A stretch of 64,000 nucleotides of DNA, taken from assembly GCA_973895155.1 (NCBI GenBank), contig OZ316892.1, positions 26,993,233 through 27,057,232 on the forward strand, given 5' to 3'. Source of the stretch: Marsupella aquatica (taxonomy: Eukaryota > Plantae > Marchantiophyta). Positions 358-29,588 of the stretch are shown piece by piece. The position numbers and the translations under genes were made by a program. The notes beneath the pieces were generated by a model. That model saw only the letters and a program-made list of their open reading frames with translations. It ran no database searches and had not been told where the DNA came from. Every line of letters begins with the position of its first letter. Positions within the stretch are counted from its first letter, which is position 1.

Positions 358-361
358 CAAT

Positions 362-1052: not shown

Positions 1053-1074
1053 CACTACTACATATTTGCCAATT

Positions 1075-1600: not shown

Positions 1601-1619
1601 AATATTATGAGCGCTTCAA

Positions 1620-6843: not shown

Positions 6844-6954
6844 CTATTCCATGCAAACACCCACAAACAACCAAATGTGTAAACCATATGTGTAAACATT
6901 GATTCACCTCTAAAAATAACAGTAAAGCACGGCAATCAATTGAAACAAACTTAC

Positions 6955-7212
6955 CATATGGGATGAAGAAGCCCCGGGAGTAAGACCTCTATGATGTCCA
7001 TATCTCTCAATATGTTGAGCACACACATAAGATTTTTGAGAAATTTGGCCCACACATCTGGTGCAGTCACAAAGTCTTCGGGGTGGACCACGAGGACCAG
7101 TAACCTCGGGCTGAGGAGGAGGGGGTATATCGTTATCGGAGGAGTACTCACTACTGGATAGTTCAGAGGAAGAGGACATATCCACTGCCACATTACATTG
7201 CATGTAGGGCAT
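6955..7212 (-). CDS. First coding exon with transposase-associated CxCxxC...H zinc motif
   Basis: RLCDCTRC...CAQHIERYG matches the N-terminal motif of the other two CACTA transposases here (MYCSCMQC...QHLLKNG). Phase-0 donor ATG|GTAAGT at 6954. Confidence 0.75.
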
Positions 7213-7299
7213 GATTAGGAAAAATTAGGCCATATATAAAGCGATTTTAAAAAAAATGAACTCAAAAAACAATTAGGTTGGTTTATACATGGGGTTTTA

Positions 7300-8340: not shown

Positions 8341-9019
8341 GAAGTTAGCAAAAACCTAAATGGTCAATTCCCTTCAACCATCCTATGCTTCTCTCTACCA
8401 TAATTATATGCCACCCCTCTTGGTTACCCTCCTAAGATACCATAAAAGTAACCCAAGATACTATAAAACTGAAACCTCTCTTTCAAACCCTCCTAGCTCT
8501 CACCCTCCAATACATATAACCGCAACCTTCATAAATAAAACCCCCCTGCAAACCCAAAACATAAAACCCCTCGTATCTAAGCCAATCTAAGCCCAACCTT
8601 CACAAAAGAAACCCTCCCCTAACCAGGCCAAACCCCCTCCTCTTACCCTGCAATATAACTCCTTCAATTTTCTAACCCCCCCAATCCTTATCTCATCACA
8701 TCCCACTAAAATGCAACATAATCCTCTACATCTACCCCATTTAATGTTCATAAGCCCCCTTAGTATCCCTAACAACACATCAAATACGCATGCGAGACGG
8801 GGGTTATGGCAAAACCAAATAGCGAAGGCTTTTGCGAATCTTGAAGCTTCGCAAAGATAGAATTTGCGAAGCTTTTTGCGAAGGCCGATGCATCGCAAAC
8901 TGCGATGCGAAACGAATCGCAAAGCCCAATATTTTGAATCCTTATGGATTGCCGAGCGCGGACAAGGCGGATTCAGTTCATTCAGGCCTAAGGAGAGCAA
9001 CGAGGGCAAGGGCGGAGCG

Positions 9020-11112
9020 ATGGCGAGCGAAGAGGGGACTGGTGGTGATGGAGGAGCTTCTGGCAGCAGTGGAGGCAACCGAGGGGGGGGGGATCGATTG
9101 AAGGCGATTGTGGATGAGCATTTTTTGGTTGCACAGTTGAGTCAAATTGATTTCACCAGTCCAGCAGGGCTGGCATCATTGAGTGCCCTTCTGGGCCAAG
9201 CCTTGCAAGCAGGTCTCACTGCAGGGCAAGCAACAGTGGAGGAGGATGCAAGGAAGGCAGCAGAACAGGCGGCTGCTGAGAGGAAGCGAAAGAGGGAAGA
9301 GAGAGCTCAGGCTGGAGTGCTCTCGCCTCAAGCATTGGAAAAGAAGAGGAGGAAAGATGAGAGAGACCTGATCAGGAAACAGAGGGAGGAGCAAAGAAAG
9401 AAGGAGGCAGCAAGGAGGAAGCTGCCTCTGATTACTTTAGAGGATGAGGGGATTCCCACCGAGCTTGCTTACAATGGGGCCAAGAGCACAATCAGGCACA
9501 TTGTATCCACAAATTTTGCAAGAGGAGTCGAGTGGGGCACTCGCTCAAAGGCAGAGCAGAAGCGAGTCATCAATCAGGTGAAAGATGCATTTCAAAATGG
9601 AGGAGAGATGGATTCACAGTGACTTGCTGACAAAATTTCAAACTCCATGTCACAAGCTAGATACCATGATAGAATGAAGATCAGGTCTCACCTTAGAGAT
9701 TTGGAGGAGTATAGGAATTTGCAGAGGCCGCTGCAATTCTCAGAAGATATCTGGCAGGCCTTCTACCAGACAGAGGTGAAGTTGAAAGCAGCCAGGCTCC
9801 TCAATGATTTCACAGAGAAGCTGGCAAAGGCTCGAAGGGCAAAGGAGGCCGGGAAGTCTGACCGGGACCTAAAGGTGATGGAGCAGAAGGTAGCCCAGCT
9901 CCAGCAGGTTGTAGCAGAAGTAGGCGATCCACCCAACAAGTTCCTGAAGGCAGCTGAGCGAGTCCGAGACAAACCCAACATCACCCACAGGCTGGGTCAA
10001 GGTGGCCTCCCCGGCCTCAAAGCAGCATTCGTGAGTGCACCTCCCTCTCCTCCCTTGACTTCTTGCTACTCCAATTCCTATTCCAACACACCTGCAATGA
10101 GCCAACTCTTTCTTGCATTTCCACCAAGTAGTTACAATTAGACTTGTTGTGTCAGATTAGGTCACGTACAGTTGCTTCCCTCTCGGGTTTTTGCCATGAC
10201 AGAGTTTGCGATACATTTGCGATGCGGGTAGCTTCGCAAATCCTTCGCAAACCTTATTATGCCCTTTTTTTGCTTATGTTTGCGAAGGCGTTGCGAAGAC
10301 GTTCGCATCGCAACCAGCTTCGCAAACGTAATTGTCCTTATGATTGCGAAGCTGGCGCCTTCGCAAAATTTCAAAAATTTGAATTTTTAAATTTTCCGAT
10401 CGTTTAAGTGTTCTTTGAGGGTCTTCCCCATATATGCCACCCTCCATAACCCCAAAACCTTGATGCACCACCCCACCAGCCCCAACAAACCCCCTAATTT
10501 TTAGAAGCCATGTGAATCGGGTTATGGGTTGGTGTTAACCCAATTGTGCTGGTTTTGTTTTGGCTTAGTACAAGAGGTACAAGAGGAAGATTATGGCGGC
10601 TGAGATGGAGGTGGGCCAGAAACATGGGAAGGAGCATCTCTTTCAGCAAGTTGATGAATTATTGGTGAGAATTTTTAGGTTATTACATTCATTGCAATTT
10701 TGAATGAATATCTCTTTTGTTCACACTTGTAAAGAATATGAGACTAACAGACACCCTGGTTTGCTAATGGAAGCAAGGAGGGGAGGATGGTGACTCCCAT
10801 ACCGAGGGTGGCACCGATAGTAGTGATGAGGATGTGGAGGGGACAGGGGAGGGGAGCACAGCTCCTGCTACTCAAGCTAGGCCAACTAGCACTAGAGACC
10901 AGTCATTTGCATCAGCACATTCCAGTGGTGCTGGGGGTGGTAGCGCGGCAAGCCAGGGCGGTGGAGGTGGGGATGAGGATGAGGATGAGGGTGACCCCGA
11001 GGGTGACCAAGAGGAGGAGGAAGTCCAGGTTGCACCCCCCCCAAGAGCACACAAGGGCAAGGAGAAGGCCAAGGGGAAGAAGGCAAGGAGGGGCAGGAAC
11101 ACTCCTTTCTAG
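9020..11112 (+). pseudogene. CACTA-1 ORF2 / TnpA-like protein, multi-exon, divergent from the transposase; premature TGA at 9620-9622
   Basis: ORFs 8864-9622 and 9647-10141 are in the same frame across one TGA. THRLGQGG motif resembles Transposase_24-type proteins. Donor GTGAGT at 10031; acidic/basic tail 10834-11112. Confidence 0.65.
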
Positions 11113-11364
11113 CTCGATGTAGACAAGTTGTAGCTAGAGCACTTACATCGAGTTCACATGTATAGCGATCAGCATGCATGGCCGTGGCACTTTACCTAAG
11201 GGTTTTTACCCTTCCATTTTGTAACTTTTGTACTTTTTCAGTAATGCCATTTTAATTGCGGCAGACTGGGTCAACATCACTTTCCTCCCTCCTTCAAAAC
11301 CCATGAATGGTCTCCCTCACCCTCACCCTAACCCAAATACACAAAAACCCATGAAATATACATT

Positions 11365-11880
11365 TTGCGAAGCTTTTGAGAACCAACCCCCATCTCAAAG
11401 AGCCACGGTGAACGTATCGCAACCATTCCGAGGAGAAACGCATCGCAACACTTGCGATGTTGTCTAAATCACAACCCTAGCGAAGACTTACTCTCCACAC
11501 GTTTGCGAGTTAAATGCCTTCGCAACAAAGCGGTCATCCGCTTCTCGCAATCTTACGAGTTTGTTTGCATCGCAAGTTATAGAGAAATTTAACATCGGAA
11601 ATTGCGATGTAAATGTTATCGCAACGCGAGCGATTCATTTGTTCTCGCAAAATAATGAAATTTGTCATTTCTCAATATTTGCAAGGACAGTGCCGTCGCA
11701 ACGTTGCGGAGATGTTGCGACGTATTTAGAATCGCAAGTTGTGAAGTAGTTGCGAAGGGCCGTTTGCGAAGAATTTGAGATGGGAAGTAGCGAAGACGTT
11801 GCGATGCGAGTAAGTTTGCAAATTGGGTATTTTGGATTTTGTTTCCTTTGTATGATGCGAAGGGTGGTGGTTCGCAAAAG
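11365..11880. repeat. CACTA-1 right subterminal TCGCA/TGCGA array
   Basis: Same motif as 1075-1600, directly before the right TIR. Confidence 0.85.
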
Positions 11881-11900
11881 AGGTGCATAGTGTTGTAGTG

Positions 11901-13150
11901 CATGGAGGTCAGTCAACGAAGAAGAAGACAAGTACTTGATCGAGAGGCCATTTTGGGAACATCAAAAGCGCTCAAGGGCAAAGGAGTGAACAATGGGGAA
12001 GAAGCAAGAAGACCAAGAGAAGAGGAGAGGAAAGAAAGTTATGTTGATGACCTATCAAAGCTCATGGAAGGATTAAAAATCCTAAGCACACAAGTGATGG
12101 GGCCGAAAAACAACTTGTGACAAGGAGGGAGCTCGAGTCGAGGCAGTACTTGGGGTTGTATGTGGTGTGATAACAAAGATCATGCTAGAAGGGATTGTAG
12201 GGAATTTTCTGAAACACTCAGAAAACAACATGTAAAGTTTTTTGGTGAAGCTGGCATGAAAAAGATTGCATACTTTGATTCTGGAGAACCTGTGCCACTC
12301 AATGGCAACAAAGGAGGTATGAAGGCATTGGTGGAAAAAAGGTTAGCTGAGCAAGATGTAAGTATGGTAGCAGCAACATATGAGCCAAATGTCTATGCAG
12401 CTCAGAGACATGAAGACCTTGCAGCAAATTTGTCTTTACTCAATAAGAAAAGATTAGCTGAGCATGTTCGACGTCAAACAGGATGGGATGTACCTGTTCA
12501 CATCACGGCTATCACAACTGAAGTAGGAGCAGCTTGGGATGTTACAGTGGAAGACAAACACAAGGCTGCAGAAGAGGCAAGAAAAGAATCTCGACAAAAA
12601 CAGCAAAGGATAAACGAAGAATCCAAAAGGAAGACTGTGCGTTTCAAACCAACAAAAGGATCAAGCTCCAGTCCCGGCTCAAGCAAAGAGTCATATGGAA
12701 ATAGTTCTGGACCTGAGGGGCTAGTTAGTAAGAAGAAGCAAGGAAACAAGGGTCCTGGTTGGGTGCTAGGCCGAGATGTCGAGAGAGATCTTGATCCAGA
12801 AGCATTGGCCAACAAATTTTGGAAGCAAGAAGTACGGGGTTTCACTAACGAAGAGTTTTTTGGCTGTCTAAGGAGGGATGTTCAAGAAATAGTATTAGCC
12901 AAGGCTAAGAAGAAGAGATTCTACAAGGAGGGTCCACATGCCTTGGCTGGATCAATCTCAGAAGATTCAGATGAAGACATGGAGGGAAGAGAGAGTTACT
13001 TAACACAAATCTTGGAGCAAGAGGATGGAGCAGATCCAGAGGAGCATGAAGAGTGGGTGCAAGTCTATGATGCTAGTTTTGAAGATGTCAACACATCTCT
13101 TGGATGGGAGACAAGACAAGAAGAAGCAACAAAAGCTTATTGGGCAAGAG
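11901..13150 (+). pseudogene. gag: gag continuation with CCHC zinc knuckle; stop at 12118-12120
   Basis: CMWCDNKDHARRDC = CX2CX4HX4C, in frame with the N-terminal gag after CACTA-1 removal. Confidence 0.88.
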
Positions 13151-13457
13151 CTCGGGGGCCTCAATCCAAGGGGTGTCTCATATCACGCTCGAAGTTTTGG
13201 GGGAATAAACACCCTAAAAGTTAAGTCAATAAAGTTTTTTTTAGGAATTTTTTAACCCCTAACTTAATGGAATATTCCAAGAATATTCTCATATTTGATT
13301 TTAAAAAACCCTATGATTCTCATAATTCTCAAAATTGGATTAAAATAACCCTAATGTTCTTCAACAAAAATTTAAAAGTATTTCACTAAACCCAATAAAA
13401 AAACCCTATACTTATTTGCGCGTGATGGGTCGGAATAAAAGAAGTGAGGACCCCGGG
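13151..13457. mobile_element. 307-bp MITE with 13-bp imperfect TIRs and 8-bp TSD GGCAAGAG; related to the P-like element end at 28116
   Basis: Left end CTCGGGGGCCTCA vs right end rc CCCGGGGTCCTCA. TSD at 13143-13150 and 13458-13465. Removal restores YWAR-GCSECLVEL. Confidence 0.93.
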
Positions 13458-13465
13458 GGCAAGAG

Positions 13466-13935
13466 GGTGCTCTGAATGCCTAGTGGAGCTTGAGGGAATC
13501 AAGGGCACAATACGTGCACTACTTGATTCTGGTTCTGAGGTAAACCTCATGTCCTTGAAGTTGTACAAAGAAGGGCAGTGGAAGGTGGATCGAGACATCA
13601 ATTGGGGAGTTAAAGCAGTAAATGCTACCAAAAATGGATTGTGAGGAGCATGTCCAAGAGTCAAAATTAGAGTAGCCCATGTGGTAGAGCCTATCAATAT
13701 TTTTGTGCATGAGAATCTTCCATATGATTTTCTCCTTGGGCAGCCTTTCATCACAGAGTTAAGGTTGGAGACAAGAGTGCTTGATGATGGTACTCATGTT
13801 GGAAAGGTGAAGAGTCGAGATGGCATGAGAGTCATCCAATTCCCTACTGTTCTTCCTAAAAATAGTAGGAACAAGAAAGAACTAAGAGGACCTGAGTTTC
13901 GTCAAGGGAGACAAGACTCTCAAGATTTCTCTTAG
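13466..13935 (+). pseudogene. Aspartic protease of the retrotransposon; TGA at 13642-13644
   Basis: LLDSGSEVNLM active-site motif and FLLGQPF flap motif. Confidence 0.9.
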
Positions 13936-14212
13936 GCGCCCTGCATGCTAAGATGGAGTTCAAGCGAGGCGCCAATCTGATATCTCCATCTCCACAGGTC
14001 AGGATTGAAGCTCATCAGTTTTTTTTTCTTCCTTTCATGGAATAAGTAAGAATAGGGTTGTTTCATTTGTAGAAAAAGAAAAATTTTCAAGAAAGCTACA
14101 AAAAAGAATGGATAGAAAGAGGAAAGGTTTGCAAGAAGATGGTATCATAAAAGAAAGTGAATAGATTTTTGGCATCTTAGAAGAGAGTGGATGTGAACCA
14201 TCGATAGAGGAA

Positions 14213-17200
14213 GTGCTTCTATCAATATATCAAGGTGAATCAGAGATAGAGATTGGAAGAAGTTTATATGAGGTTCTAGCCTACCTAGTTCAGGAAGAGA
14301 TTGAGGTTAACACCAAATATAAAATAGTGGATAAAAAGATTAGACCAGCAGCTACTCCATTACCTTTAGAAGCTAAAGAGTTGCTACAGAAAGCTAGTAA
14401 AGAACCTTCTTTGAGGAATTGGGATAAGATAGGTCATACATTCACTAAGAAGACATTGGATAGTTTGCAAATTGGAGGGGATGGCTTACTCACCAATGTT
14501 GAGGTCGAGGCTTTTCGGAAGATGATATCAAAACATGGAAAGGCCCTTTCCTTCAACATAGATGAAATAGGTTGTGTCAACCCAAGGGAAGTGACACCAA
14601 TGATCATCTTTACTGTTCCTCATATTCCATGGGATTTGAGGCCATTACCAATACCTCGAGCATTGATGCAAGGAGTGGTAGACTTGCTGAAGGAGAAGTT
14701 GAAAGCAAGAATCTTGGAGAGATCCAATGCACCATATGCAAATCGTTGGTTCACTGTGAGAAAGAAAAATGAGAAGTTGCGATTCATTCAAGATATGCAG
14801 CCGCCAAACAAGGTCATAATCAGAAATGTTGGCACCGGACCAGTGGTTGATGAATTTGCAGAGGAGTTTGCTGGTAAGGCAATTTACTCAATTGGGGATC
14901 TGTATTCTGGGTATGATCAATTCTAACTTGTTGAAAGTAGCAGGGATATTACCACCATGAGAACACCGTTGGGGTTGATGAAGATGTGTACCTTGCCACA
15001 AGGAGCTACAAATTCAGTAGCCCACATGCAAAATGCCATGAATAGGATTTTGCAATCTTTTATTCCACAAAAGACTCGACCATTTTTGGATGACATTCCT
15101 ATCAAGGGATGTGTGGAGGAGTGCAAGGATAAAACAGTTAGGGAGGATGGACTACGACAATTTGTGTGAAACCATCTTCAAGACGTTGCAGCAATTCTGA
15201 AACTATTGATGGAGGTTGGTGTTACACTTTCTGGTGAAAAATCTGCATTTGGCCTTATAGAGATCTTAGTGGTTGGGCAGAAATGTGGTTCATATGGAAG
15301 GAAGTCTAATGATGCAAAAGTAGATGCTATTAATCATATGAAGGATTGTAGTTCCGTGAGTGAAGTTAGGAGATTTTTGGGTGGATGTGTGTTCTACAGA
15401 ATATGGATACCTCATTTTGCTCATATTGCAGAACCTCTATATGATTTATTAAGGAAGAAGGTTAAGTTTGTATGGACTGATAGACATTCCAAAGCAATGA
15501 CTAGGATGAAAGAAGCATTGTTAAGTCCACCAGTTCTTAGAACAATAAACTATGACAATGATCAACCTGTAATTGTCATAGTTGATTCTAGTCCCATAGC
15601 AGTAGGATGGGCTATAGGACAGGATGACGAGGAAGGACATCGTTTTGCTACTCGCTTTGGGGCTAAGATCTTTGATGAAAGGCAAAGAAGGTACCCGCAA
15701 GTCAAACGAGAACTATGGGGTGCAAGATGCGCCATAAGACAAGAGAAAGATTTCTTGATAGGAGCAAAGGTTATTCTGGAAACTGATTATAAGCCATTAT
15801 TAGGGATGATCTCTAACTGTGACACTCCAGATATAGCTATGCTAAGGTGGATAGCCTTTATTAGGATGATTAATCCTGAACTAAGGCATATCAAGGAAAA
15901 AGATAATCCAATGGCTAATATGTTATCAAGGGCAAGATATCACAAGAATAAAATAATTAGTAAACATGTCATAGCAGTCAGTGGAAGTGAGGCACATACA
16001 GAAATTGAGTCTATAGAGTTTAAAGAAGAACTCTATTCGGGGAAGCTACGAATCATAGGGCAATATCTGAAGAAATTGGAAAAAGAAGAAGGGTGGACAC
16101 ATGAGGAGTTCAAGAAGATTCGGAAAGAGGCATACCAATTTCTTCTCAGAGATGAGTATCTTTGGAAACGTCCAAAGAAAAAGGGACATGTGCCTTTGCG
16201 GGTCATTGATGATGTTGATACAAAGGCACAAGTACTTCAAAATTATCATGATGATCAAACAGCAGGACATAGAGGAGTCCAAGCTACTTACAATAAGATT
16301 CGTGAGTTCTATTGGTGGCCACGAGTTTACATGGATGTTAGGGACTATGTGGAGAGTTGTAAGGTGTGCCAAATATACTCCAAGCTAAGGCATAGAGATG
16401 GGTTGAAGCCTACTTACCCATTGGCCTTACATTTTCAATGGATGTTAGACATAGTGCATATGCCAAATGGAACAAAGGGTGCAAAGTACTTAGTATTGGC
16501 AAGAGAAGACTTATCTTCATATGTAGAGGGAAGGGCACTAGCATCCAATAAGACAGAGCCGGTTTGTAGGTTTGTTTTGGAAGATATCATTGCTAGACAT
16601 GGATGTTTTTCTCAAATGAGGGCTGATCGAGGGGAGCTAAATAGTGAAGAAGCACACGATTTTTTTGCTAAGTTTGGCATCAAACTTAAGCTTACAACAT
16701 CTTATAATCTAGAGGCAAACGGAAAAAGTGAAAGAGGTCATCCACCAATAGTCAATGCTTTAGTTAAAGCATGCAAAGGCAACACATTCCAATGGCCTAA
16801 TCTACTACCATTAGCTCTGATGGCAGATAGATTAACTTGTAGCTCGGTTAGTGGATTTCTCCCTGTAGAGCTTGCTTCAGGACATTTACCATTGATGCCA
16901 ATTGAAGAAAAAGTACAAAGCTGGCGGACCATAGAGTGGAAGGATGAGGTTTCTAGAGAAGAATTGATTGCTAGAAGGATAGAGCATTTCAATCAGACTC
17001 CAGAAAAGATTGCTATAGCCTTAGAGCACGTCAAAGCTGCAAGATTGAAGAACAAATCAAGATTTGATTTGACTCACCGACTCCGACCTATCCCAATCAA
17101 AGAAGGAGATTGGGTGCTTATCTCAGATAACGCTTTGGACAATCAACACTCAACACTTAAAAAGTTTGCGAGGCGATGGATGGGACCTTTTGTGGTCACC

Positions 17201-17386
17201 CAAATCCATGATAATGCAACATATAATGTCAAAGAGATGGACGGAACACATCATCGAACCCGATATGCAGGAAAGCGGATCAAGCTATTCAAAAGAAGGA
17301 CAAAATTTAGTGTCGAGGATATCATTGATGAAGACTTACCAAGTGAAGAAGAAATTTGGGACTCACATATTAGTAGGGGTGAATAG
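14213..17386 (+). pseudogene. pol: pol: reverse transcriptase, RNase H, integrase; stops at 14924 and 15167
   Basis: RT motifs DLYSGYDQ, LPQGATNS, FLDDI. RNase H IVDSS...RELWG...ETDYKPL. Integrase H-x6-H...CKVC, LDIVHMP, ADRGE, NGKSER, WMGPF. No chromodomain. Confidence 0.95.
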
Positions 17387-17430
17387 TCTTATCCAGAATG
17401 ATTGGTGTAGACCAGAGGCTGCACAGGTTT

Positions 17431-17443
17431 AGTAGGGGTGATA
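17431..17443 (+). promoter_or_regulatory. Polypurine tract
   Basis: AGTAGGGGTGATA directly before the TGTC start of the 3' LTR. Confidence 0.65.
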
Positions 17444-18715
17444 TGTCGTAAAAAAATGGTTTTGGAGTTAGAATACCTCACATAGAGTTTCTCACTCCAT
17501 TAGACATTATTAAAAATTAAATAAAAATAAATAGTGTGACTTAGAGTAGTTATTTATAAATTATTAGATATAATAGACCAAAATCATAGAATAGGTAAAA
17601 ATAAAATAGTATACCAAAATAATAGTATACCAAATGAGTATAGTAGACCAAATGAGTATAGTAGACCAAATGAGTATAGTATATCAAATGAGTATAGTAG
17701 ACCAAATGAGTATAGTAGACCAAATGAGTATAGTAGGCCAAGATAATAAAATAGGACAAAAATAAGATAGTGTGCCAAAAAAGTGGGCTAGCAAATTGTG
17801 GATAGTCCACTTTACAAAATAGTGTGCTAAGATAGTGGGCTAGCAAATTGTGGATAGTCCACTTTACAAAACAGTGTGCTAAGATAGTGGGCAAAAAAAG
17901 TGGGCTAGCAAATTGTGGGTGGTCAACATTTCAAAGTATAAATAGAAGGGAACTTGCTTCCCATAGGGCATTGTGTTCCCACTATTGAGAGTGGAGTCCA
18001 TGGTTTGCCTTGATATAACGGAGGACTATGCCGCCGATTTTCATGATGGAAGGAATTGAGGATTTTTCTTATGGTCATGGAGGGCTATGCCACCACTTAA
18101 GCACCTTAAGTTAAATACTCAAATCTGGCAAGGATGGCTATGTCGTCTGCATCAAGGATATATTATCAAAGGTTACCTTAGGCTTAGCTATTCCCATAGA
18201 TTGTGAATGATGTTGCATGGGTTGCCAAGAGTGCATAGACCACCGGGAGTGGTTGTCAACCCATTTTTGATTAGATTATATTGTTTAGATAAAAATGTAA
18301 TGCGTCAAATGCTTATGTATCAGTTTGGTATAGATTTTGCCACCATGGTTATGAATTTAAATGTTCCACTCATATTCCCGTAGTTACTTATGAAGAAGAG
18401 TGGGTGTGTACTATCTATATTTTGTATTAGAAAGGATGGATTTGAATCAAGTCCCAAATCCAATCTTAAATTTGATGTCTTCCTTGAGTCTAAAGATTAT
18501 TGTGCGAAGGAAGATAGCGTGTAGGGAAATCTTAATAAGAAAGTTTGGAGAAGAGTCGTAATATTATAGTATCTTCAGAAGAAGCTCTAATACTCTACGG
18601 GGATCATCCAATGGGAACTTTAAGTATTTTTGTGCTTGTATAGTTCAGGTGAGTAGTCGTATTTGCACAGGTAGCAAGGCCCAGTGCCTCTCGAGTAGAT
18701 TAAAACCCCAAGACA
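17444..18715 (+). repeat. 3' LTR (~1272 bp), TG...CA
   Basis: Starts TGTCGT after the PPT and ends AAGACA; last 354 bp match 1-357. The start coordinate is inferred because the 5' copy is truncated. Confidence 0.85.
17629..17925 (+). repeat. Tandem repeats inside the LTR: 6x 18-bp ACCAAATGAGTATAGTAG (17629-17736), then ~52-bp GTGGGCTAGCAAATTGTGG units (x3)
   Basis: Directly visible. Confidence 0.9.
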
Positions 18716-20533
18716 ACGGCTCAAGTTTCAGTTTGCTTTGAGCTTTCGCTTGCTATTTTCTTCTGATGTAGTTTGCTGACATTTGAATAGGAGGAAGGCG
18801 ACGCTGGAAAGAAACAGTGGGAGGACGTCGTTGCCTGGCTGGACATTTGGATCGAGGTCACTGTGGAGGTCACAATTGAATCTTGGATTGAATCATTGAT
18901 TGTCATCCTAATTGTCGTGTGTGGTTCTTCACTTTGCAGCTTGCTATAGCCTGGAGGACGGCTACTCTTCAGAGAACAACAGTAACAAGTAAGTGACCAA
19001 AATGTTGAGGACTTGCGCTTTCTGCCTCCCATATGCAAGCTTCATAGAAACTGACGTCTCTACCATGATACCCTGGCTTGCTGATTGAGCTTGCTCGCTG
19101 CCTTGTTTGTATGTTTTTCTTTTGCATGTATTAGGAGGACGACAACGCTGGTTGGAGGACTATTGTTGTCGGTTGTGTAGCTGCGTCACATTGGAAGACA
19201 AGGACGGTCCGGAAGGGACGCTCGGCGAGGGCGGAGGCGAGGGTAGAAGAGCGTTACATCTAGTACCAGGTTTGAATCTAGCTCCTTGTCCAGGTTGCAA
19301 TTGCAAGTTTCCTAGACAACCAAGTCCACATTGTCTGTGTGCTTGCATTGCCTACTCGCATTGAAAAGAGCTAGTCTAGAATGTTACGTAGCTATTTCTT
19401 TTGTAGTAGTAGCCAAGCAGAATCCACAGAAGAGGCTTCCAATGTAGTATGCGACGGTCTGTACACATTGTTGTTGTGCTGCATTCATAATCGTTGCTCG
19501 GACCTGGGTTTGGTCAGGTCTCGCAGAAGTTTTGGTCAGGTCCTGGCTGCGGAATTTTTCTGCATCTTGCTTCTATTGAACTATCAAACTGAGGATTTTG
19601 TGTCTTGCATAGGATCTTCCTGATCTATGGAGCTCGTTTTGCTTGCCTCTTATCGGAAGCAATTGGGATTGAATGCCTTGTATTCCCTTCCCGGTTGTTG
19701 CTTTTGAACTTTGGCCAATAGGCTTCTTTGTGGTAGGCCGCCTTGAAATTGCCTTGAAATTGGGCGGTTGAAAAGCTTTGAAGGAGGTGGAGCGACTGTG
19801 GCCTTTTCCAGTGTTGTTACTACCAAATTTCCACTGCGAGGTATGTATGTGGTAATTAATTGATGTCGATAGCAAATAATTTAGTCTTGTTTGCTGTTAA
19901 GTAGGTTGAGTTCACTTCAGTTTACTAGACAGACAAACCCTCAGAGTTAAGCAAATACTTAAGTTTGAGGAAGCTTGTTGGTAGTATGACTGTGAACAAT
20001 GTCATAGCGCAGGTCAACATTATTGTCTGCAAGGGCTTCATTCTGAATTTTCTGCTCCACTGTTGTCTTTGTAGGGCGAGGCGAGTTCACTTACTAGTGG
20101 TGGGTCTCGGATCGTGTTGTTTAGGGCTGTATTCTATATTGGTGTTGTGCAGAAAATAGCATACTTCATGTGTGGATCTCCCTTCTTTTCAATTAATTAT
20201 GGTCTGGTGTATGTACTATAGATGAAGTTGTGTAGTATTATAATTCAACTGTTTGACTGATTTGAATGTACAGAGACAGGACAGTGGACCATCTAGGGGA
20301 ATGGACACTTGTTTCATGGATATGCATTTTTACTCTCATTTTTACTACGCTGGTGAGTCGCTGATATGTTTTAATTATGCACTATGGAATGTGCAGATTC
20401 ACACAATCTTGGGTGGTGACCAGGAGTTCGGGTTCTCATTCGACTACAGAAGTTGTGGGGAGCCTAGGATCCAAGTAAGCTCCACTTTGTTGCAGAGGAC
20501 AACAGGGCCTTTAGCTTTAGGGTTGACTATGCC

Positions 20534-20959
20534 ATGGGTCGTAGATATGAGTCTGCACCAAAGGTTTTGCCCTGTTCAATTTCGAAGCCAATTTTTGAGG
20601 GTGTGAATGCCTTCTTAGTTCCAAATGAATTTTCAAGAGCTCATTTTGAAGTTTTCCATAGAAAGCTAATTGAACGTCATGGTCAGCTTTGCACTGTTGC
20701 TTCCAGCAACACCACTCACATTGTTGCTGGTTCTTGGAGAGCAGTCATGTCCGAGTGGACATGGTCTGGTGTTAATTCCCTCATTCAAGAGCAGGCATTG
20801 AAAGTTGTCTAATTTGAATGGATGTGCGAATCCCTCAAAGAAGGAGTCCTACCGGAAGAAGGCCCTTTCAACTTAATGTTGACTGAGGTAGAGTCTGAGG
20901 TAGATTGTGCTAAGAGAAAAGTAGAACAGATTGAACAGGATAAGGCAGGTTCAGTTTGA
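20534..20959 (+). pseudogene. Single BRCT-domain protein; TAA at 20810-20812
   Basis: IFEGVNAFL...TTHIVAG...LKVV*FEWMCESL. Homologous to the first BRCT of ORF 52556-53419. Confidence 0.8.
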
Positions 20960-21289
20960 AGAAGTATAAACTTGATCAAGCCAAAACGTAAATGTGTGTA
21001 GCTTACTGTAAATGTAACCTCTACTCAGTCTTGGAGCAATTTAATAAAGCGTTGCTTGCTGCAATTCTTTGCAAATCCGCTGTTTGGTTCTTGGAGCACT
21101 ATGTAGTTCCTTTGGTTTGTGTAGGTTTTTAAAGATTAGTTGCTTCTCTTTTTTGTGCAGGGACATTCTAGCGCAAGGCAGAAAGTGTGGAAGTTCTGGG
21201 TCCAAGCAAAGGTTGGCCCTTGTACCCTATTTGTTGTGGCCTTGTGATTTTGTTGGAGTGAGCACAATCTCAATCTAGGTGCACTAAAG

Positions 21290-21727
21290 ATGGTTGTGAC
21301 ATGCAGTGCATTGTCTGAGTACCATCAACAGAAGGGTGAGCGATTCCATGTGAAGATGATTCACAATGGGGTCGTGCCTACTGACTATGCTGTGACGTGG
21401 GGCTATCCAAGTCTGCCTTGCAACCATTATAGGAGGCTGAATACATCCCCACTAGTCCCAAACAGTATCCGTCTAGTTAAACGGACACTTGGGGTGTTGG
21501 ATGAGGACTGTGTCTTCCTGGAGGCTTGTCTCCATTGTCACACCCAGACATGTGATCGTTGTAGGGGAGGTCACTCAAACATAGTGCAGACTTTTGCACA
21601 GTACATGGCAAGAATGGCATGGGGCCGTTGCCTAGCATGGAATACTTGTCATTTCATCAATGATTGTGTCTGTGATGGGACACGTCCAGGTTCTGCCCGT
21701 GATGATGATGCACATTCAAGTTGTTGA
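21290..21727 (+). CDS. ~145-aa Cys/His-rich protein of unknown family (copy A)
   Basis: Open ORF; aligns with 37818-38264 and 55353-55802 (ACLHCHTQTCDRC). Confidence 0.72.
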   Translation: MVVTCSALSEYHQQKGERFHVKMIHNGVVPTDYAVTWGYPSLPCNHYRRLNTSPLVPNSIRLVKRTLGVLDEDCVFLEACLHCHTQTCDRCRGGHSNIVQTFAQYMARMAWGRCLAWNTCHFINDCVCDGTRPGSARDDDAHSSC

Positions 21728-21894
21728 CGTCTAATTTGCATTCCTCATATTGCAAGATGGATCAAAAGAGCCCACAGGGAAGTGATGCCCCTGGTGGAGG
21801 CTACTGGCTGTGATTGCTGGTGGACTGTTGCTCCTTCTGGTACATCACATGCCTGTCCCTATTTTTGAAGGTAATTTTGCAGATCTTGTTCAGC

Positions 21895-22590
21895 ATGGCA
21901 CACATCGCTCGTCAGTTGCTGGATCCAAGATTTGGGCATAGGGAGCACCTTTGTATGGATCCCCCTTGTTGTTTTGAATGTGACGAGGGAGGAACTGTTT
22001 TGTTCTGTGATGGCCCTTGTGGTCGCCATTTTCATTATATAGTTGATGGCCACAACCCTGATGAAGAAGATGGCCATGGACCTACATGTCAGCGCATTGT
22101 CATTTCCAGAGGTCATGATTGGGCTGCAGCTTGGCTCTGTGATCTCAGTCAGCAAAACAGAGGAAGATGTTTTGGTTGTGGGCTCCTTGGCAGAACCTTG
22201 AGACCCAGCACAGATGAGCCCCTTGTGGTCCAGTGTTCTCATGATGATTGCTACTCATTTTACCATGTGGGTTGCCTCCGGACACTTCTGCGATTGGGGG
22301 AAATGCCATTCACCCGCCATCGAGATAACCCTGATGCACATCCCGATGCTTTTATATGCCCACGACATTACTGTGAGGTCTGTAAGGAGTATCGGGAGGG
22401 CATTTGGGACTTTGTCCAATGTTGTAGATGCCCTCGTGCATGGTGTCGTGATGAAGGACCAACAGCAGACAGACACTTGAGGAGAGGGGTGAGGGGCCGA
22501 GACACCTGGGACATTGGATAGTGGCACATGATTTATTGTAATCGCCATGTCATTCTAGAGGGTTCTGATATCCCTAGTACCCATGACTAG
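21895..22590 (+). pseudogene. EDM2/NSD-type multi-PHD finger protein (copy A); TAG at 22519-22521 near the C-terminus
   Basis: CFECDEGG...CDGPCGRHFH; CFGCGLLG...QCSHDDCYSFYHVGCL; FICPRHYCEVC...QCCRCPRAW; IYCNRH after the stop. Confidence 0.85.
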
Positions 22591-22912
22591 ACACATCATG
22601 ACTGCTACAAATTCCATCTTACAAACTTCAACCTTTTTTGTAGTGGACCCATAAGACAACCTAAATTATATGAACTTAAGTATTTGGTTGAATGCTATGG
22701 ACTTAAGTATTTCGATGAATGAAAGGGACCTAAGTATTTGGTTGAACAAAATGGAATTTTGATGAATTGAAATGGACTACAATAGATTGAGTGTTCAGAT
22801 GACATTGTGAATGGTTGACTTGAGTCCTGATCTTTTTCCATGTCTATCCATTGTTGTATGACAGGTTCATCTACCTAATCCCTCTCCCTCACAGCCTGTA
22901 TAACTGTCCATC

Positions 22913-25900
22913 ATGGCACACCTAGGCATGAGCTCTGTCAGATTGGTAGAAAAGGGTGAGGAGGGAGGAAAGCCTGATATGCCAATCTGTGTCATGTCCT
23001 TCAAAGAAGGGCAGACTCTGGCAGATTTTTGTCTAAAATGTGTTGGTGCAGTAGAGTTTGACTTTGATTTTGGGGATGAGAGGTTGTCTGGTCGAGTCCG
23101 GCGCTTTTTAGAGAAGACTGTTGGGGTGACTGAACTTCAAGGGACAATTTACGTGATTGCAGAGTTACCCTCAATTGCCTTGCCTGCGGAGAGGGTCACT
23201 ATTGGTTCCTCTCATTCATCTGCTGCCATTGTGTCCAATGTGGCAGGCACGACTCTATTGTCTCAAGGACAAACACAAGGGGTGCCAGTACAGGCTATTG
23301 TACAGCCTGTCACGGGCTCCTTTGAGTCTCACCTCATATCTGAGGCTGCATCAAAGGCTTGGAATGATGAGTGGGTGGAGCTACAATCCTGGGTAAACCA
23401 GAAGGGCTTTGGTGAGCACAAGTGGAAAGTGCGGACGTGGGATGAGGGAGGGGAGTGTCAAGGTCATCTAGAATGCTTAGAGTGTAGGGAGACTTATGGG
23501 AATGCAGCCACTTCACAGGTGCTCAAGTCCATTGCAAATTGCTTTAGCAACTTCAAGACAAAGCACCTGACCAACCCTAAACACAAGGAGAACTGGTGTA
23601 AGCGAAGGGGTTTAGCTGGAGCTTTGGTGACGGCTGCTGACACTATACAGCAACCACTGTTTGATCATAGTATGCAAATAGGGGCTGGTGTGGAAATAGT
23701 GGGAAAGTTGAATGCAGAGGTAGGTGGGGTGGTAGAAGTGTTCTCTATCACACCATCTCCCACTGATCCAACATTTGCACAGAGGTCATTCCTGTCTAAG
23801 GTGAGATGTACAGTCTGTGGTGAGCTACATACTGACATGTGCCTTAAGAAATCCAATTTGGAACACAATTTAAGGCAACATCTTGTCAGTCGGGATCATA
23901 TGGATGCACTTGAGAACGTCGTCACCAGTACCCAGGCTGCACTGAGGGCAAGGAAGAAGGGGAGACCAAGGAAGCCTGATGCTCGTGATCTGTTTCCATC
24001 TCAAAATTCTATTATGAATTTCTTTAGAGAGGACAACTCTGCTGCAAGGAGCAGTTCAGGCAGAGGTGGGTTGTATTCCTCCATTGAGCCAAGTTTAAGT
24101 TTGCTTTGTTGGGGCTATGGGAGTCAGAGGTCAAGTGGACAGGGGATTCTATGGCTGTGAAGGGCATACTTGATGATCAAGAGGGAGGGAATGTCTGGGA
24201 CTGTGACCGTACCACCCGTGCTGAGGTTTTCAATATAACTAGCCAATTAGTTGTTGGTATACAGGATTGTTTTAGGCACAAGCAATGTCACAGGGTGTCC
24301 ATTAATGGAGGTGGTTTTCAAAACCTCACTTGCACTCTATGTGATTCTATAAAACGTGAAGATGATTTTCGTGGCAGGGTGCACAGGGAAGCGAAAGCAT
24401 TAGTGCAGAGAGGAGACAGGACTACACAGGGTGGGATGAGGTTGGCATACTTGACCAAAACCGAACTGAGGGAATAGGTTGGTAACCTCAACACTCGCTT
24501 TAGGAAACAGCGTTGGCTGTTGGCACAACAGGCTCAGAAAATTTGTGCCTTGAGTGTTAGGCGAAAGAAGCTAGAAGATTTATTAGGAGTAGCCCATGAT
24601 AGGAAAGATTTAAGACTGTTTCTGAGAAATATTGTGAATGGACATAGGCATGGTGCTTTTGGTGGCAAGGAAGGGTTGTGGGATTTCCTGACAGATGTAG
24701 CTAAGAACTTGCAGAGAGTTGCTAAGGGTTATCAATACAGTAAGAGAACCAAGGCCTTTTCCCAAGCCATGTTCTAGTTTGGAGGTAGACAAGTGGCTCA
24801 TTGTTTCCAGGAAGATCTAGGTGGTCCAGGTCTGAAGACCTTAAAATGTGATAGAGCAAAACTACCACCCTTTAGAGCTGGCATTCAAAAAGAGATATTC
24901 CAGGAGGTGTGCAGAGTACTATGTGCATCAAAGCAGTCACTTGGAATTTCAGGAGATGTACCAGTAATGTTTGCTGAGGATGAAACAAGGATAAAAGAGA
25001 GACCCAGGTTTGTGTTTTTGTCTCTATAGTAAATTAGCTTGTTCTTTTCAATGTGTTGGATGAGTTTGCACGTCATGAGCTGATGTCTGTATTGTATTGT
25101 GTGTAACAGATGGGAAGCTAAATATGACACCCTCATTGGTTTCTGTGGCCCCTTAGAGGAGCACACATGTTCTTTTGGCTTGGAAGTATTGGTTGGAGTA
25201 GGTACTGAAGGGTATGACAAGATTGTAAGTACTTTTGAGCAGTATGCCAAAGACATGTATGCTAGAGTAATCATTGTCAATCTTGAGCTGCATGCAAAGA
25301 TGCCTAAATTGGCATTGTGTGTTGTACCAACATGTAACAAGTTTAAAGCTCCCTGGGTAAGAGAGCATTGGGTGCAGCTAAAGTCCATGTGGGACACACA
25401 TTGTAGAGACAGTGTTGGTCCTTTGTTGGGCCATGCTAGTGATGGTGATGCTCATCGTAGGAAATTGATGATGGAAGATTATACTGCTATGAATGTTTCC
25501 TTTCCTAGGTACAGTGTAGGATGGGTTGGGTGGCAATACTCAGTGTCCATACTTTCGAATGGAGATTTATATGGTTTTGGAGACCAAGACCCACCTCACA
25601 ATGGCAAAAAGGCAATTAACCCATTAGACCGAGTGTTTGCTATGTTAGTCCTTGGTGATCAGCATGCATCTTTGTCAAATGTCACATCTGTTTATAACCA
25701 CTATGCAATTCATGAGCATGGTTTGCATTGGGATGATGTGAATAGGACAGATAGACAAAATTGGGCTGGCCCACAACGAATAGCTTCCAGGAGAGTGCAA
25801 GCCTGCCTGCAGCATATGTATGAGCAATGAGATGTTTGTCATGACAGAAGCTTTGGGACCATGATATACTTGGAGGTTTGTGCAGACTACATGGATATTT

Positions 25901-27513
25901 TCTTCTCTGTTAAGTATGACCTAAGAACCCGTGTTGTCTTGGCATCAAAGGTATCTTGGTTCTTCCGATTGTGGAGGCTATGGTTGAGGTATGGTGATCA
26001 TTCTGTGATAGGGAATGTTGGATCTATCACAGAGAAGAACGTGATTTTTGTGTAGGCTTTCCATGATATCAACATGTCTTGTCATTTTGTAGTATTGTTA
26101 ATCTGTGCCTTTTGGGACAAGTTCCCATATCTGCAAGTTCCATTTCACTTGCTGGGATCAGATTGTTGTGAGATATTTTTCAGCAAGGTAGGTGGCATGA
26201 GTGGCCATGAGAGAAATGATGACTTTGGATCTCTACTGGATAGTGCATAGTGCAGTGAGACTGAATCGACTAGCTGGATTAGAGTATGGACCAGAGGGAT
26301 TGAAGATACGTCGATCACATGATAAACAAGATCATGTTTGGGCAACTTTACATCCTCTGGATGAAGGAGAACAAGCTCCAAATTTATTTGATTACTCTGC
26401 AGTTCAGACTAATGATCTGGTTGTTGATGCTCTAAAGGAAGGTTTGGGGGAAGCAAAGGATTTGTTGTGCAAGTTGAACATGTCACCAAGGAGTTCTTTG
26501 CCAGCAGCGAAAAGACGATGGTGGGTTCATCCTTGGGAGGTGGAGGCAGAGACTTGGCCAGATACAAGTGTCATGAAAGAGGCTGTGTTATGTGATGATG
26601 CTGAAGACATAGTTGAGCATCGACCTACTGTAGGCCCTAGACCTGAGCCCCCAATTAGAGAGTTTCTAGAGTTTGATGATCCTGAAGAAGATCTCAATCG
26701 GATTGATTCATGGGACACTCTGGACAGTCATGATTGTATTGAGCCATTAACAGTTGATGATTGTGAGATTGAGGTGGACACTGACCCATTTTGTGAGATG
26801 GAAACACTAGGACATGAAGTAAGGCATGTCTTGGCTGGAGTTCAAGCAGACTTAACTGATGTACAGACACCCCGGTCAGTGGTGTCTACTGTAACTTATG
26901 AGGGAAGGACTATCTACAAGTCCACTCTTGTTAGTCAATTGTGCTGCAATCCTTTCATGTCAAAGGATCTAGGCTAACTAGGATAGCCCAGAAGACCTAT
27001 TACACTACTGGTAAGGAGAAGAAAAATGGTGACTCTGTGACTTGTTTGGTTGACATTGGTACTGATATAGCAGTTTTGTTTGAGTCTGCTGCAGAGGTTG
27101 GTCCTTCTACCAAATTATCCAAGTCAAAGAAGAGGAAGGGAAGAGATAAGGCGTCTACTGTTGTCAAGGCACTATCTGCAAAGAAGGAATATTGGTTGGG
27201 TAGGATTGAGTTTATGATACAGAAGAATGGCTCCCATTGGGTCAGACGTCAAAAAGCAATAGATCTGTTGGACAGGCCTGTACCTGCAGTTGGATAGAGT
27301 GGAAGTGTGTGCCGCTTGCAATGTAATTGGTACAAATCTATTGGTAACAACAAAACTTTGTTCACTTATGATGCAATGGATGGACAATGGATTGATATTG
27401 AGATGGTAATTTCAAATGTGAACTTGACTATGAAGTCTGGGGTAGTTGACAGAGTATGTACTAGATCCAAATGACTTGCAGGCTTTGACCACATACATTC
27501 AGAGTGTGAGTAA
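22913..27513 (+). pseudogene. P-element/THAP9-like DDE transposase with N-terminal C2H2-type fingers and AT-hook; several stops and frameshifts; intron 25008-25109
   Basis: Ordered motifs FAEDETRI (24970-24993), HASDG (~25432-25446), DPPHNGKKAINPL (from 25588), DRQN (25750), GSDCCEIFFSKVG (from 26155) match the P-superfamily pattern FDE / SD(G) / DxxHxxKxxRN / QDxxExxF. Confidence 0.75.
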
Positions 27514-29588
27514 ATTATGATATATACTTGACTATTGTTTATTGTAAGTAGTTTATTGTGTGTGTATGTGATGCATGTTTAGGGTTAGTGGGAGGGAGTA
27601 GAGTAGGGGATGGCGGATTGGAAAATTGAGATTTATGCTCAATCAGGGGTTCAATTCCCCTCCATCATGTGAACATCATCATGTTGGGAGCTTGTGAAGC
27701 AAGGTAGAGAACCAATGCCTTGAATAGGTAACCTATGGTGTTTGGTTACCTATTCATGGTATCTGGCACCCACCATGCTTCACTATTCAAGAGTGAGAAT
27801 TACAAGTTGTTAGATGATCGTGAATGCAATTTACAAGATATTCAGCTTCATAATCGAACTGCATCGAATGTATTGGAAATGCATATCAATTTACACAATT
27901 GGCTCTACACTATTGAGGTACTTTACTTTCCTTAATAGGCATTTTTTTAATCATCATAAACTTTACATAAAGTTTTATAGGGGTAAACAATTCAAAAAAT
28001 GGCCGCTTTTCAGAAAGTAAGGGAGTGATGAAAAAAAATTCACTTAAAAGTTAGGGGGTCCAGACCCTAAAACGTCGCACGTGATGTAGAGCCCTACATA
28101 CAGTGACCCCTCCGAGTATGGAATGCCCAAAATTGTTACATGATCACAATGAAAGAATATATTTGAGAAAAAATCTCAATACAAGTCAAACTAAAAATAA
28201 AATATTTTACAAATTGCAGGAAAATTCATGAAAAAATAATAAGAAATGCCCAAAATTGTTACATGGTCACAACAAAAAAACATCTTTTCATATGATGATC
28301 ATTTATGATGAGAGAAGCTTACGAGGTTATGCCCCTAGAGGTTGACCGGCACGAGTGTTTTGACACATGGGTGAGAAACAAACGTGAAATTACCGCCATT
28401 TGAGCTAGGCTAGCATGGACCGATATTACGGCCCTACGTCGCAACTGTAAACGGCAATAGACATTCACCTACTTCATAAAGATTGCAACAGAAGAACGCA
28501 TAGCTGAATGAAGGTTGCGTTTTAGAAAGCTCATTACCGGAACGAGAAAGTCTATAATGGCGGTAAGAAGCTCGGTTTTGGATTGGATGAATTCAGAATG
28601 ACGCACAGTTGAATAAAGATTACGATTTCTGGATGTGATTACGAGCATATATTAAAAAGCTCATTGGCGGGACAACAAAATGTATAATGGCGGTCAGAAG
28701 CTTGATGGTGAGTTGACGATTTTAGAGAACTATGTGCAAACAATCGCAATGGGGAATAGACCATTTTCTGCGCCATAGGGCGCCACTTTAAAGAATCTCA
28801 AGCCGTTGGTGGAATCCACAAGATTGCAGAATTTCATCTCCCTCACCTTTCCGAATGAAGGCACTTCTTCTGTCATTCACCAGCTCAACACTAGTAGAAA
28901 ATGGGGCCTTTTATGACTATGACACATATGACTTATGTGCTCAAATGACAAAATATGTAAATGACATAACATAAATGACATTGAAATGACTATCCAAAAT
29001 GACGGGGTGCAAAAAATGACTAATACTTACAATAGTGTCATTTAAACCAATGAGCCAAATGACTTTGACTGCTATAATGACAATAATCATGAGTTGTAGT
29101 CATTTTGGAAAGTCTTTGTGAATGACACAATTAACAAAAACTGTCATATCAGTGTTTCACATATGGGAAGTCATTTCAGACGACAGTGACTAATGACTAA
29201 TAAATCAAATATTAGTGTTTAAAAATGTTAGTAGTCATTTAAACCAAAAGTGATAAATGACATGATAAACAACATATGACTATTTTGAGGTTTATGGTTT
29301 GTATATATTTTAGGGTTTAGGGTATGATTAGTCATTCAAAATGTATGGTAGTATATATAAAGACTAGTGGCACTCACATATTAGATTTGAAATACATTTA
29401 GAGACCTAACAAGCCTTCTTTTGTTGTGAGTCACATCATTAAATTGATGTACAACTTAAAGGCTTGATAATCTCTAATAAGTATGTACATTTATATATAC
29501 TTGCACCCATTTATTACATCTTTCCTATATATGCCAAGGACTCCTGAAGTGTTTACATTCCTTAAGATGTATTCACATTTCACATGTT

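What the first reader, a model, noticed from the sequence alone, without database searches (positions are those of the whole stretch)
22913..28116. P-element-superfamily transposon in a plant genome, lacking THAP and carrying C2H2 fingers
Seen: motifs EDET / ASDG / DPPHNGKKAINPL / DRQN / SDCCEIFFS in the order typical of P/THAP9 transposases. The N-terminus has two CxxC...H...H fingers (LECLEC...KHLTNPKH; VRCTVC...QHLVSRDH) and an AT-hook (KKGRPRK) instead of THAP. The related MITE makes an 8-bp TSD, as P elements do. Known: P elements are mainly described from animals, some protists and Chlamydomonas and are not a standard land-plant superfamily. Inference: a little-known plant P lineage with non-canonical C(T/C)CGG termini.
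Basis: partly seen in the sequence, partly recalled or inferred. Interest (0 to 1): 0.78.

Follow-up and report, generated by a model that had tools for sequence, protein, structure and literature searches.

The report
P-like transposon lineage in land plants
This is a broken copy of a DNA transposon whose enzyme is predicted to share the fold of the fruit-fly P element's but has zinc fingers instead of the THAP domain; its relatives occur in liverworts and a fern, plants where P-type elements have likely been overlooked.

Summary
Window 22913-~27520 is a decayed transposase gene of about 1,480 codons, colinear with intact relatives of 1,475-1,530 aa. A model of an intact relative matches Drosophila P transposase far better than any other listed structure (Z 25.9 against 11.6 Transib, 8.8 Hermes). 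The D-D-E triad and DxxH motif are near-invariant. A complete relative (L003) has 29-bp TIRs starting CTCGGGGGGGTCACT and an exact 8-bp TSD; this copy's right end (28116) matches 14 of 15 bases. A MITE at 13151-13457 has an exact 8-bp TSD. Corrections: this copy's left TIR is not in the window, so its TSD is unverified; the element probably extends left over BRCT, Cys-rich and PHD cargo genes; the family is not plant-specific (named animal members too). It has no THAP domain, keeps 3 of 8 P GTP-contact residues, ends in a predicted BAH/Tudor-like barrel and mostly escapes Pfam's P models. Named plant members (Riccia, Calypogeia, Adiantum) form one well-supported clade with no sign of recent transfer from animals. 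Verdict: works like P, a divergent THAP-less sister lineage; new variant. Repbase and Dfam could not be checked.

The parts
22913..27520 (+). Decayed transposase gene, about 1,480 codons; six in-frame stops (24475, 24775, 25828, 26053, 26248, 27295) and frame breaks near 24130, 26240, 26970 and (by eye) 27455
   Evidence: tblastn colinearity with intact 1,475-1,530 aa homologs; end at 27520 read by eye
23474..23584 (+). C2H2-type zinc finger 1 (CLEC...HLTNPKH)
   Evidence: pattern and conservation in homologs; no Pfam hit
23807..23899 (+). C2H2-type zinc finger 2 (CTVC...HLVSRDH)
   Evidence: two Riccia homologs are named 'C2H2-type domain-containing protein' by their source
23954..23974 (+). 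AT-hook-like KKGRPRK
   Evidence: GRP core at the same place in most full-length plant-clade members listed
24600..24900 (+). Coiled-coil end and HTH region, aligning to P residues 106-247 (bounds approximate)
   Evidence: profile A4 against 6p5a, E 0.0092; Pfam P HTH model hits 2 of 43 relatives
24979..26172 (+). RNase H-like DDE core (D 24979, D 25441, E 26170) split by a helical insertion with the fold of P's GTP-binding domain; DxxH at 25588-25599
25009..25110 (+). 102-bp GT-AG intron just after the first catalytic Asp
   Evidence: sequence; appears as an insertion against intronless homologs
26900..27520 (+). Conserved K...LSxDRxxR motif followed by a predicted SH3-like beta barrel closest to BAH domains
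   Evidence: model of the L003 counterpart; top seven matches are BAH-containing proteins, Z 7.0-8.0
28076..28116 (-). Right end: terminal 15-mer CTCGGAGGGGTCACT and subterminal box ATCACGTGCG at positions 32-41 from the end
   Evidence: 14 of 15 match to the L003 TIR; box in register in the MITE and L002; contig depth falls after the bin ending 28226
28117..28124 (+). Predicted right TSD copy TATGGAAT (partner not in window)
   Evidence: inference from the 8-bp TSDs of L003 and the MITE; unverified
18716..22912 (+). Probable left arm of the same element with cargo: BRCT-like ORF 20468-20812, Cys-rich ORF 21248-21727, NSD-type PHD ORF 21814-22521; splice-acceptor-like site at 22865 before the transposase ATG
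   Evidence: Pfam; joint 19498->27468 in two runs; no TIR here
13151..13457 (.). 307-bp MITE of the same kind, TSD GGCAAGAG, inside the protease region of an LTR retrotransposon
1..18715 (+). LTR retrotransposon that abuts, and probably interrupts, the left arm (context, not part of the element)
   Evidence: LTR copies 1-357 and 18362-18715 are 95.8% identical; RNase H and integrase domains

Best explanation
The locus is a broken copy of a DNA transposon whose DDE transposase is predicted to have the P-element fold and likely moves by cut-and-paste, leaving 8-bp target duplications. Shown: the gene, its conserved D-D-E and DxxH residues, CYCGG-type inverted ends and exact 8-bp duplications around a complete relative and a MITE. 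Predicted: HTH, split RNase H and a GBD-shaped insertion as in P. Inferred: the two C2H2 fingers and AT-hook take THAP's place and bind the ATCACGYGCG box 32-41 bp inside the ends; the HTH holds the TIR; strand transfer at sites 8 bp apart gives the TSD; an intact copy elsewhere mobilised the MITE. Less sure: GTP use (about even odds, 3 of 8 contact residues kept) and chromatin tethering by the C-terminal barrel (about 0.3). The plant clade has likely been inherited within land plants for a long time.
For: AlphaFold model of intact relative P0028 (pLDDT 84.8; 45% identical to the window core): Foldseek best 6p5a E 3.1e-10, next RAG1 2e-4, Hermes 1e-2; VIA Z 25.9, 408 residues, rmsd 4.0, against Transib 11.6, RAG1 9.9, Hermes 8.8, ISCth4 8.4. 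An 87-sequence profile ranks P transposase first among PDB sequences (E 0.0092) and puts the EDET Asp on D230. Atlas neighbours carry PF21787 in 17-25% of members. L003: complete 6,096-bp element, 1,493-aa open ORF, 29-bp TIR, TSD GTTTTCAT. MITE: the retrotransposon protease frame continues only when 8 bases are skipped (0, 7, 8, 9 tested). The MITE left end is the best match to this element's right end among 22,872 upstream positions (19 of 25, next 16). Multi-copy in four runs, with depth falling 10-fold or more past the right end. Plant clade support 100 SH-aLRT, with liverworts together and the fern outside them.
Against: No Pfam P or THAP model hits any of 9 window pieces; only 1 of 43 relatives passes a P cut-off. 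Structural identity to P is 13-15%. Only P, Transib/RAG, hAT, MULE-like, Tn5 and mariner-type structures appear among the listed matches; none is labelled Novosib, Kolobok or KDZ, so 'best match' is relative. D1-D2 spacing is 119 residues against 73 in P. Of 28 loci screened only L003 gave TIR plus exact 8-bp TSD; L028 gave 7 of 8 and L002 has TIRs without a TSD. The subterminal box was not found in L003 or L028 (4 of 10 ends negative). The folded proteins are relatives, not the window's own. No activity was measured.
Confidence: 0.85

Rival explanations
1. It is an ordinary, already catalogued branch of the P superfamily (for example filed in Repbase or Dfam as P or P-Fungi) that simply swapped its N-terminal DNA-binding domain.
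For: Repbase holds P entries for Pucciniales and Allomyces (PMC5751038, passages). The top Atlas hit is a Basidiomycota-rich cluster at 0.97. Fold and TSD are P-like. The class name P-Fungi is recalled, not from a call.
Against: Pfam P models miss nearly all members; a 1,007-genome plant survey that screened for P reported seven superfamilies and not P (PMC12973397, passages); ten paper searches found no description.
Confidence: 0.35
2. It belongs to another DxxH-type superfamily with no solved structure (Novosib, Kolobok, KDZ/Zisupton), and P is only the nearest available structure.
For: Those superfamilies lack Pfam domains (PMC5751038), as does this family; Novosib and Zisupton are recalled to make 8-bp TSDs.
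Against: The match covers HTH, RNase H, the whole insertion domain and beyond (P residues 134-569) at Z 25.9, and sequence-level links go to P models only.
Confidence: 0.1
3. The BRCT, Cys-rich and PHD genes upstream are not cargo: a compact P-like element landed in a CACTA remnant and lost its left end.
For: The same genes sit beside CACTA transposases in the window (PHD 63% identical to 36842-37411). L003 is compact, with its left TIR 683 bp before the ATG; no fetched locus carries this cargo (0 of 54). Contig depth falls off leftwards of about 21,400.
Against: Only about 390 bp separate the PHD ORF and the transposase ATG, with a splice-acceptor-like site and no TIR remnant; depth over the PHD gene is like that over the transposase, and two runs from two studies hold a form joining 19498 to 27468 (sides 29 and 53 letters, one at depth under 5, so modest evidence).
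Confidence: 0.3
4. The plant elements came by recent horizontal transfer from animals or fungi.
For: Patchy named distribution: liverworts, one fern, a mussel, a brittle star. The animal-containing clade is among the nearest groups.
Against: The plant-containing clade is separate (support 100, stem 0.37), internally deep, and not nested among named animal rows; identity to the named animal members is about 33-35%. Most rows are unnamed, and an ancient transfer is not excluded.
Confidence: 0.07

Closest known systems
Drosophila P element / THAP9 (P superfamily; PDB 6P5A, 6PE2)
   Same: Predicted coiled coil, HTH, split RNase H with D-D-E and a helical insertion of the GBD fold; TIRs; 8-bp TSD; counterparts of D528, S409 and D444 kept (PMC7776569 sections 7-8).
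   Different: No THAP; two C2H2 fingers, an AT-hook and an extra N-terminal region; about 1,480 aa; K385, K400 and N447 replaced (G, N, L/F), V401 and F443 changed (W; I/M); longer D1-D2 spacing; C-terminal beta barrel; CYCGG ends (canonical CA ends are recalled).
1360/Hoppel and Galileo (other P-superfamily families)
   Same: P-type transposase and TIRs; MITE partners are known in the superfamily (BuT5; PMC3698922, passages).
   Different: They make 7-bp TSDs (same paper); not compared directly here.
Transib/RAG1, hAT (Hermes), MULE-like ISCth4
   Same: RNase H DDE core with an insertion domain.
   Different: Much weaker structural matches (Z 11.6, 9.9, 8.8, 8.4).
Transposons carrying chromatin-reader domains (Chromo/PHD fusions)
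   Same: TE capture of reader modules is documented (10.1101/2021.11.30.470311, passages).
   Different: Here the candidate reader is a BAH/Tudor-like barrel fused to a P-type transposase; the passages seen did not mention such a fusion, and function is untested.

Membership tests
P superfamily | RNase H-like DDE triad | tested here: met
   D 80/80, D 87/87, E 85/85 in A4; first D aligns to D230
P superfamily | Helical insertion domain with the GBD fold between beta5 and alpha4 | tested here: met
   Predicted model aligns over P residues 134-569, Z 25.9, rmsd 4.0, 408 residues
P superfamily | Conserved GTP-contact residues (D528, K385, K400, V401, S409, F443, D444, N447) | tested here: inconclusive
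   3 of 8 identical in the window protein; mapping of seven rests on a weak HMM segment (-0.6 bits), D528 on spacing to the catalytic E
P superfamily | GTP required as cofactor | not testable with these tools
   needs biochemistry
P superfamily | N-terminal THAP domain | tested here: not met
   No THAP hit in 9 window pieces, 27 members of A1, 43 relatives or the L003 and L002 N-termini; a loose C2CH pattern missed the window and hit 4 of 25 proteins
P superfamily | Coiled coil and HTH before the catalytic domain | tested here: met
   Model helices 108-240; PF12017 on 2 of 43 relatives, one above cut-off; profile match to P 106-247
P superfamily | 7- or 8-bp TSD with TIRs | tested here: met
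   L003 and the MITE exact 8 bp; L028 7 of 8; L002 none; this copy untestable
P superfamily | Termini starting CA (recalled feature) | tested here: not met
   All 10 ends examined start CTCGG or CCCGG; they were partly found by that motif, L003, L002 and L028 independently
P superfamily | 17-nt staggered cleavage of the ends | not testable with these tools
   needs excision assays
hAT | Hermes-like fold and hAT domains | tested here: not met
   Hermes Z 8.8 against 25.9 for P; no hAT Pfam hit
MULE / IS256 | MULE-type core | tested here: not met
   ISCth4 Z 8.4; no MULE Pfam hit
Novosib, Kolobok, KDZ/Zisupton | Family-specific transposase profile | not testable with these tools
   no reference profile at hand; none appears among the listed structural matches
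BAH domain | BAH fold and histone-mark binding | tested here: inconclusive
   Best Z 8.0, rmsd 2.6, 81 residues (AIPP3 BAH); chromo and Tudor follow at 6.8-6.3; Foldseek best E 0.008; no Pfam hit

The most novel reading that the evidence does not exclude
An unrecognised, eukaryote-wide sister group of P elements, resident in land plants since before liverworts and ferns split, that replaced THAP by C2H2 fingers, no longer needs GTP, steers its insertions through a fused BAH-like chromatin reader, and in liverworts trades PHD/BRCT cargo genes with CACTA elements.
Probability: 0.25. Interest if true: 0.82.

Novelty: new variant of a known kind. Interest (0 to 1): 0.62.

Why it matters
P elements are not among the superfamilies that a 1,007-genome plant survey recovered, and this family shows how one could be missed: Pfam's P models do not see it. 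It adds a P-type lineage to land plants and offers intact, single-ORF elements (L003) with defined ends. Because the insertion domain keeps P's shape but loses several GTP contacts, it allows a direct test of whether GTP dependence, unique to P among transposases, is ancestral or derived. The C-terminal barrel and shared PHD/BRCT cargo suggest testable routes by which DNA transposons read host chromatin.

Tried and rejected
No whole genome is held, so copies could not be counted nor TSDs collected genome-wide. Pfam on window pieces: no transposase family. PDB by sequence with the single protein or the narrow profile: nothing relevant. Atlas on the N-terminal ORF: no usable hit; the Atlas query for the C-terminal domain did not complete. 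Left TIR: none in 1-22912 apart from the MITE. Sequencing runs: no RNA holder listed. A closer look at read contigs over the right end was not obtained, so the exact junction rests on homology and coarse depth. Cluster look-up gave no organism names for 10 unnamed relatives, so moss membership is not shown. Earlier findings of the scan: none. No Novosib, Kolobok or KDZ structure appears in the fold lists, which is no evidence either way. Paper searches listed no description of this lineage; four key papers were not held (Yuan and Wessler 2011, Majumdar and Rio 2015, Wells and Feschotte 2020, Ghanim 2019). No complex prediction was run, since a ligand cannot be scored.
Full report
Observation. 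The motifs are present and in order. The gene runs from the ATG at 22913 (or 22928) to about 27520 and is colinear over nearly its whole length with intact proteins of 1,475-1,530 aa. It has a 102-bp GT-AG intron, six in-frame stops and three or four frame breaks; CpG observed/expected is 0.20 against 0.66 in the intact relative L003. This copy is dead. The host is inferred to be a liverwort: the closest named homologs are from Calypogeia fissa (59%) and Riccia (up to 60% on partial alignments).

Family. Searches gave 26, 201 and 335 proteins and 4,905 representatives at E<=1e-3, 829 at E<=1e-30 (the weak tail was not seen and may include canonical P). Named members: Riccia sorocarpa, R. fluitans, Calypogeia fissa, the fern Adiantum nelumboides, Mytilus edulis and Amphiura filiformis; most are unnamed. 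In an 87-sequence alignment the first D, second D, the H of DxxH and the E are invariant among rows with a residue (80/80, 87/87, 87/87, 85/85). A loose C2H2 pattern hits the N-terminal part of 19 of 25 proteins examined, including rows outside the plant clade (P0038 was mis-cut), so the fingers are a family trait. No THAP hit was seen in any Pfam scan.

Fold. I folded the intact relative P0028 (1,073 aa, 45% identical to the window core, 105-row alignment; pLDDT 84.8). Foldseek ranked Drosophila P transposase first (E 3.1e-10; RAG1 2e-4; Hermes 1e-2). VIA-align gave Z 25.9 over 408 residues at 4.0 A, spanning P residues 134-569, against Transib 11.6, RAG1 9.9, Hermes 8.8 and ISCth4 8.4. Independently, the broad profile ranked P first among 177,635 PDB sequences (E 0.0092), aligned the EDET Asp with D230 and, in a weak second segment, DRQNW with the K400-V401 region. 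Of the eight GTP-contact residues listed in PMC7776569 (sections 7 and 8 read in full), D528, S409 and D444 have identical counterparts in the window; K385, K400 and N447 do not; V401 and F443 are other hydrophobic residues. GTP use is therefore open. The last 160 residues form a beta barrel, present in 60 of 65 selected rows. Folded alone from L003 (pLDDT 80.1) it matches BAH-containing proteins in the top seven places of 48,161 chains (best Z 8.0, rmsd 2.6, 81 residues), with chromo and Tudor domains close behind (Foldseek best E 0.008). These are middling scores: the fold class is likely, a reader function is not shown.

Ends and target duplication. Of 54 loci fetched, 28 were screened for TIR plus TSD and all 54 for the terminal motif (11 with a hit, 3 with paired ends). 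L003 is a complete 6,096-bp element with one 1,493-aa ORF, a 29-bp TIR and the exact TSD GTTTTCAT. L028 has CCCGG ends with 7 of 8 flanking bases duplicated; L002 has TIRs and no TSD. The window's right end at 28116 matches L003 in 14 of 15 bases. The MITE at 13151-13457 has GGCAAGAG on both sides (1 of 773 motif pairs, 0.012 expected) and the interrupted retrotransposon frame continues only when 8 bases are skipped. A box ATCACGYGCG lies 32-34 bases inside 6 of 10 ends, in exact register in the window end and both MITE ends, absent in L003 and L028 at three mismatches. The MITE's left end is the best match to the element's right end among 22,872 upstream positions, which ties the two together. 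No left TIR lies in the window.

Extent. Contigs of four public runs (three studies; the best may be the window's own source) cover the element with many copies, and depth drops from 5353, 34579, 816 and 408 to 557, 338, 65 and 0.3 in the bin after 28226. Two runs hold a form joining 19498 to 27468, suggesting that 18716-22912 is the left arm; the sides are short (29 and 53 letters) and one depth is under 5. This arm carries BRCT-like, Cys-rich and NSD-type PHD ORFs. Related ORFs flank two CACTA transposase genes in the window: PHD 63% and 31%, BRCT 36%, Cys-rich 25% (E 5e-8). None of the 54 loci has this cargo. The simplest reading is a large element whose left end lies beyond the LTR retrotransposon at 1-18715; the rival, insertion into a CACTA remnant, keeps 0.3.

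History. Trees of the core (120 of 274 proteins with at least 85% coverage, FastTree; 38 chosen rows, IQ-TREE quick) put the window with Riccia and Calypogeia (93) inside a clade of 17 rows (100) that also holds Adiantum; the named animal rows lie outside. Twelve of the 17 rows are unnamed and no canonical P was in the tree. This fits long residence in land plants and gives no sign of recent transfer from animals; it does not exclude an ancient one.

Mechanism. Shown: gene, residues, ends, duplications, copy multiplicity. Predicted: P-type fold. Inferred from P biology: end binding, pairing, excision and strand transfer at sites 8 bp apart. Inferred here: C2H2 fingers and AT-hook replace THAP at the subterminal box; the MITE moved in trans. 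Speculative: GTP independence and chromatin tethering.

What is known. A survey of 1,007 plant genomes screened for 17 superfamilies including P, by Pfam and custom profiles, and reported seven, not P (PMC12973397, passages; supplements not read). In fungi P was listed for Pucciniales and Allomyces only (PMC5751038, passages). P-superfamily TSDs are 7 or 8 bp (PMC3698922, passages). GTP residues are conserved in zebrafish THAP9 (PMC10983969, passages). Passages from moss and liverwort genome papers (PMC7466625, PMC11735767, PMC12885004) did not name P; PMC5718144 gave nothing relevant. TE capture of reader domains is described in 10.1101/2021.11.30.470311 (passages; its supplements are closed and list fusions that could bear on the BAH point). 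Ten searches listed no paper on this lineage, but Repbase, Dfam and four key papers could not be seen, so prior cataloguing is quite possible (0.35).

Verdict. It works like a P element (0.85) but fails the THAP and terminal-sequence tests, so I file it as a divergent P-like sister lineage: a new variant of a known kind, interest 0.62.

Noticed in passing
window 34300-44000 (+) and 44400-57000 (-): Two large CACTA-type elements (Transposase_21, DUF4218) carrying PHD_NSD, Cys-rich, BRCT and F-box-like ORFs related to the cargo next to the P-like transposase; suggests module exchange between superfamilies. Outer bounds are rough.
   Followed up: partly
window 2408-6843 (-): A third CACTA-type element nested in the LTR retrotransposon, with a SET-domain ORF at 6013-6843 (E 5.7e-6).
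   Followed up: partly
window 21248-21727, 37764-38264, 55353-55832: A small Cys-rich ORF family (C-x-H...CxxC) with no Pfam match, one copy in each of three elements.
   Followed up: partly
window 30410-33875: Tandem array of about eight 408-bp units, 77-87% alike.
   Followed up: no
window 29600-30262: Foldback or MITE-like element with CATCAGTTATCAGTG-type ends and long internal inverted repeats; ends unlike the P-like family.
   Followed up: no
window 59990-60330: Decayed intronless stretch that reads like a ribosomal protein L18a retrocopy (identity recalled, not tested).
   Followed up: no
L028 967-8467: Element with CCCGGGGGG...TACTC ends; these resemble very abundant short repeats that I recall from coral and other marine invertebrate genomes, which this family may mobilise.
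   Followed up: no
L002 308-9065: 8.8-kb element with TIRs, an open 1,517-codon frame and an extra 174-codon ORF without Pfam match, but no TSD.
   Followed up: partly
proteins P0159, P0164: Distant family members with added SAP (E 6e-10) and C1 (E 5e-6) domains.
   Followed up: no
window 22913-23150: An N-terminal region of about 80 residues conserved across full-length plant-clade members, with no Pfam or Atlas match; not folded.
   Followed up: no
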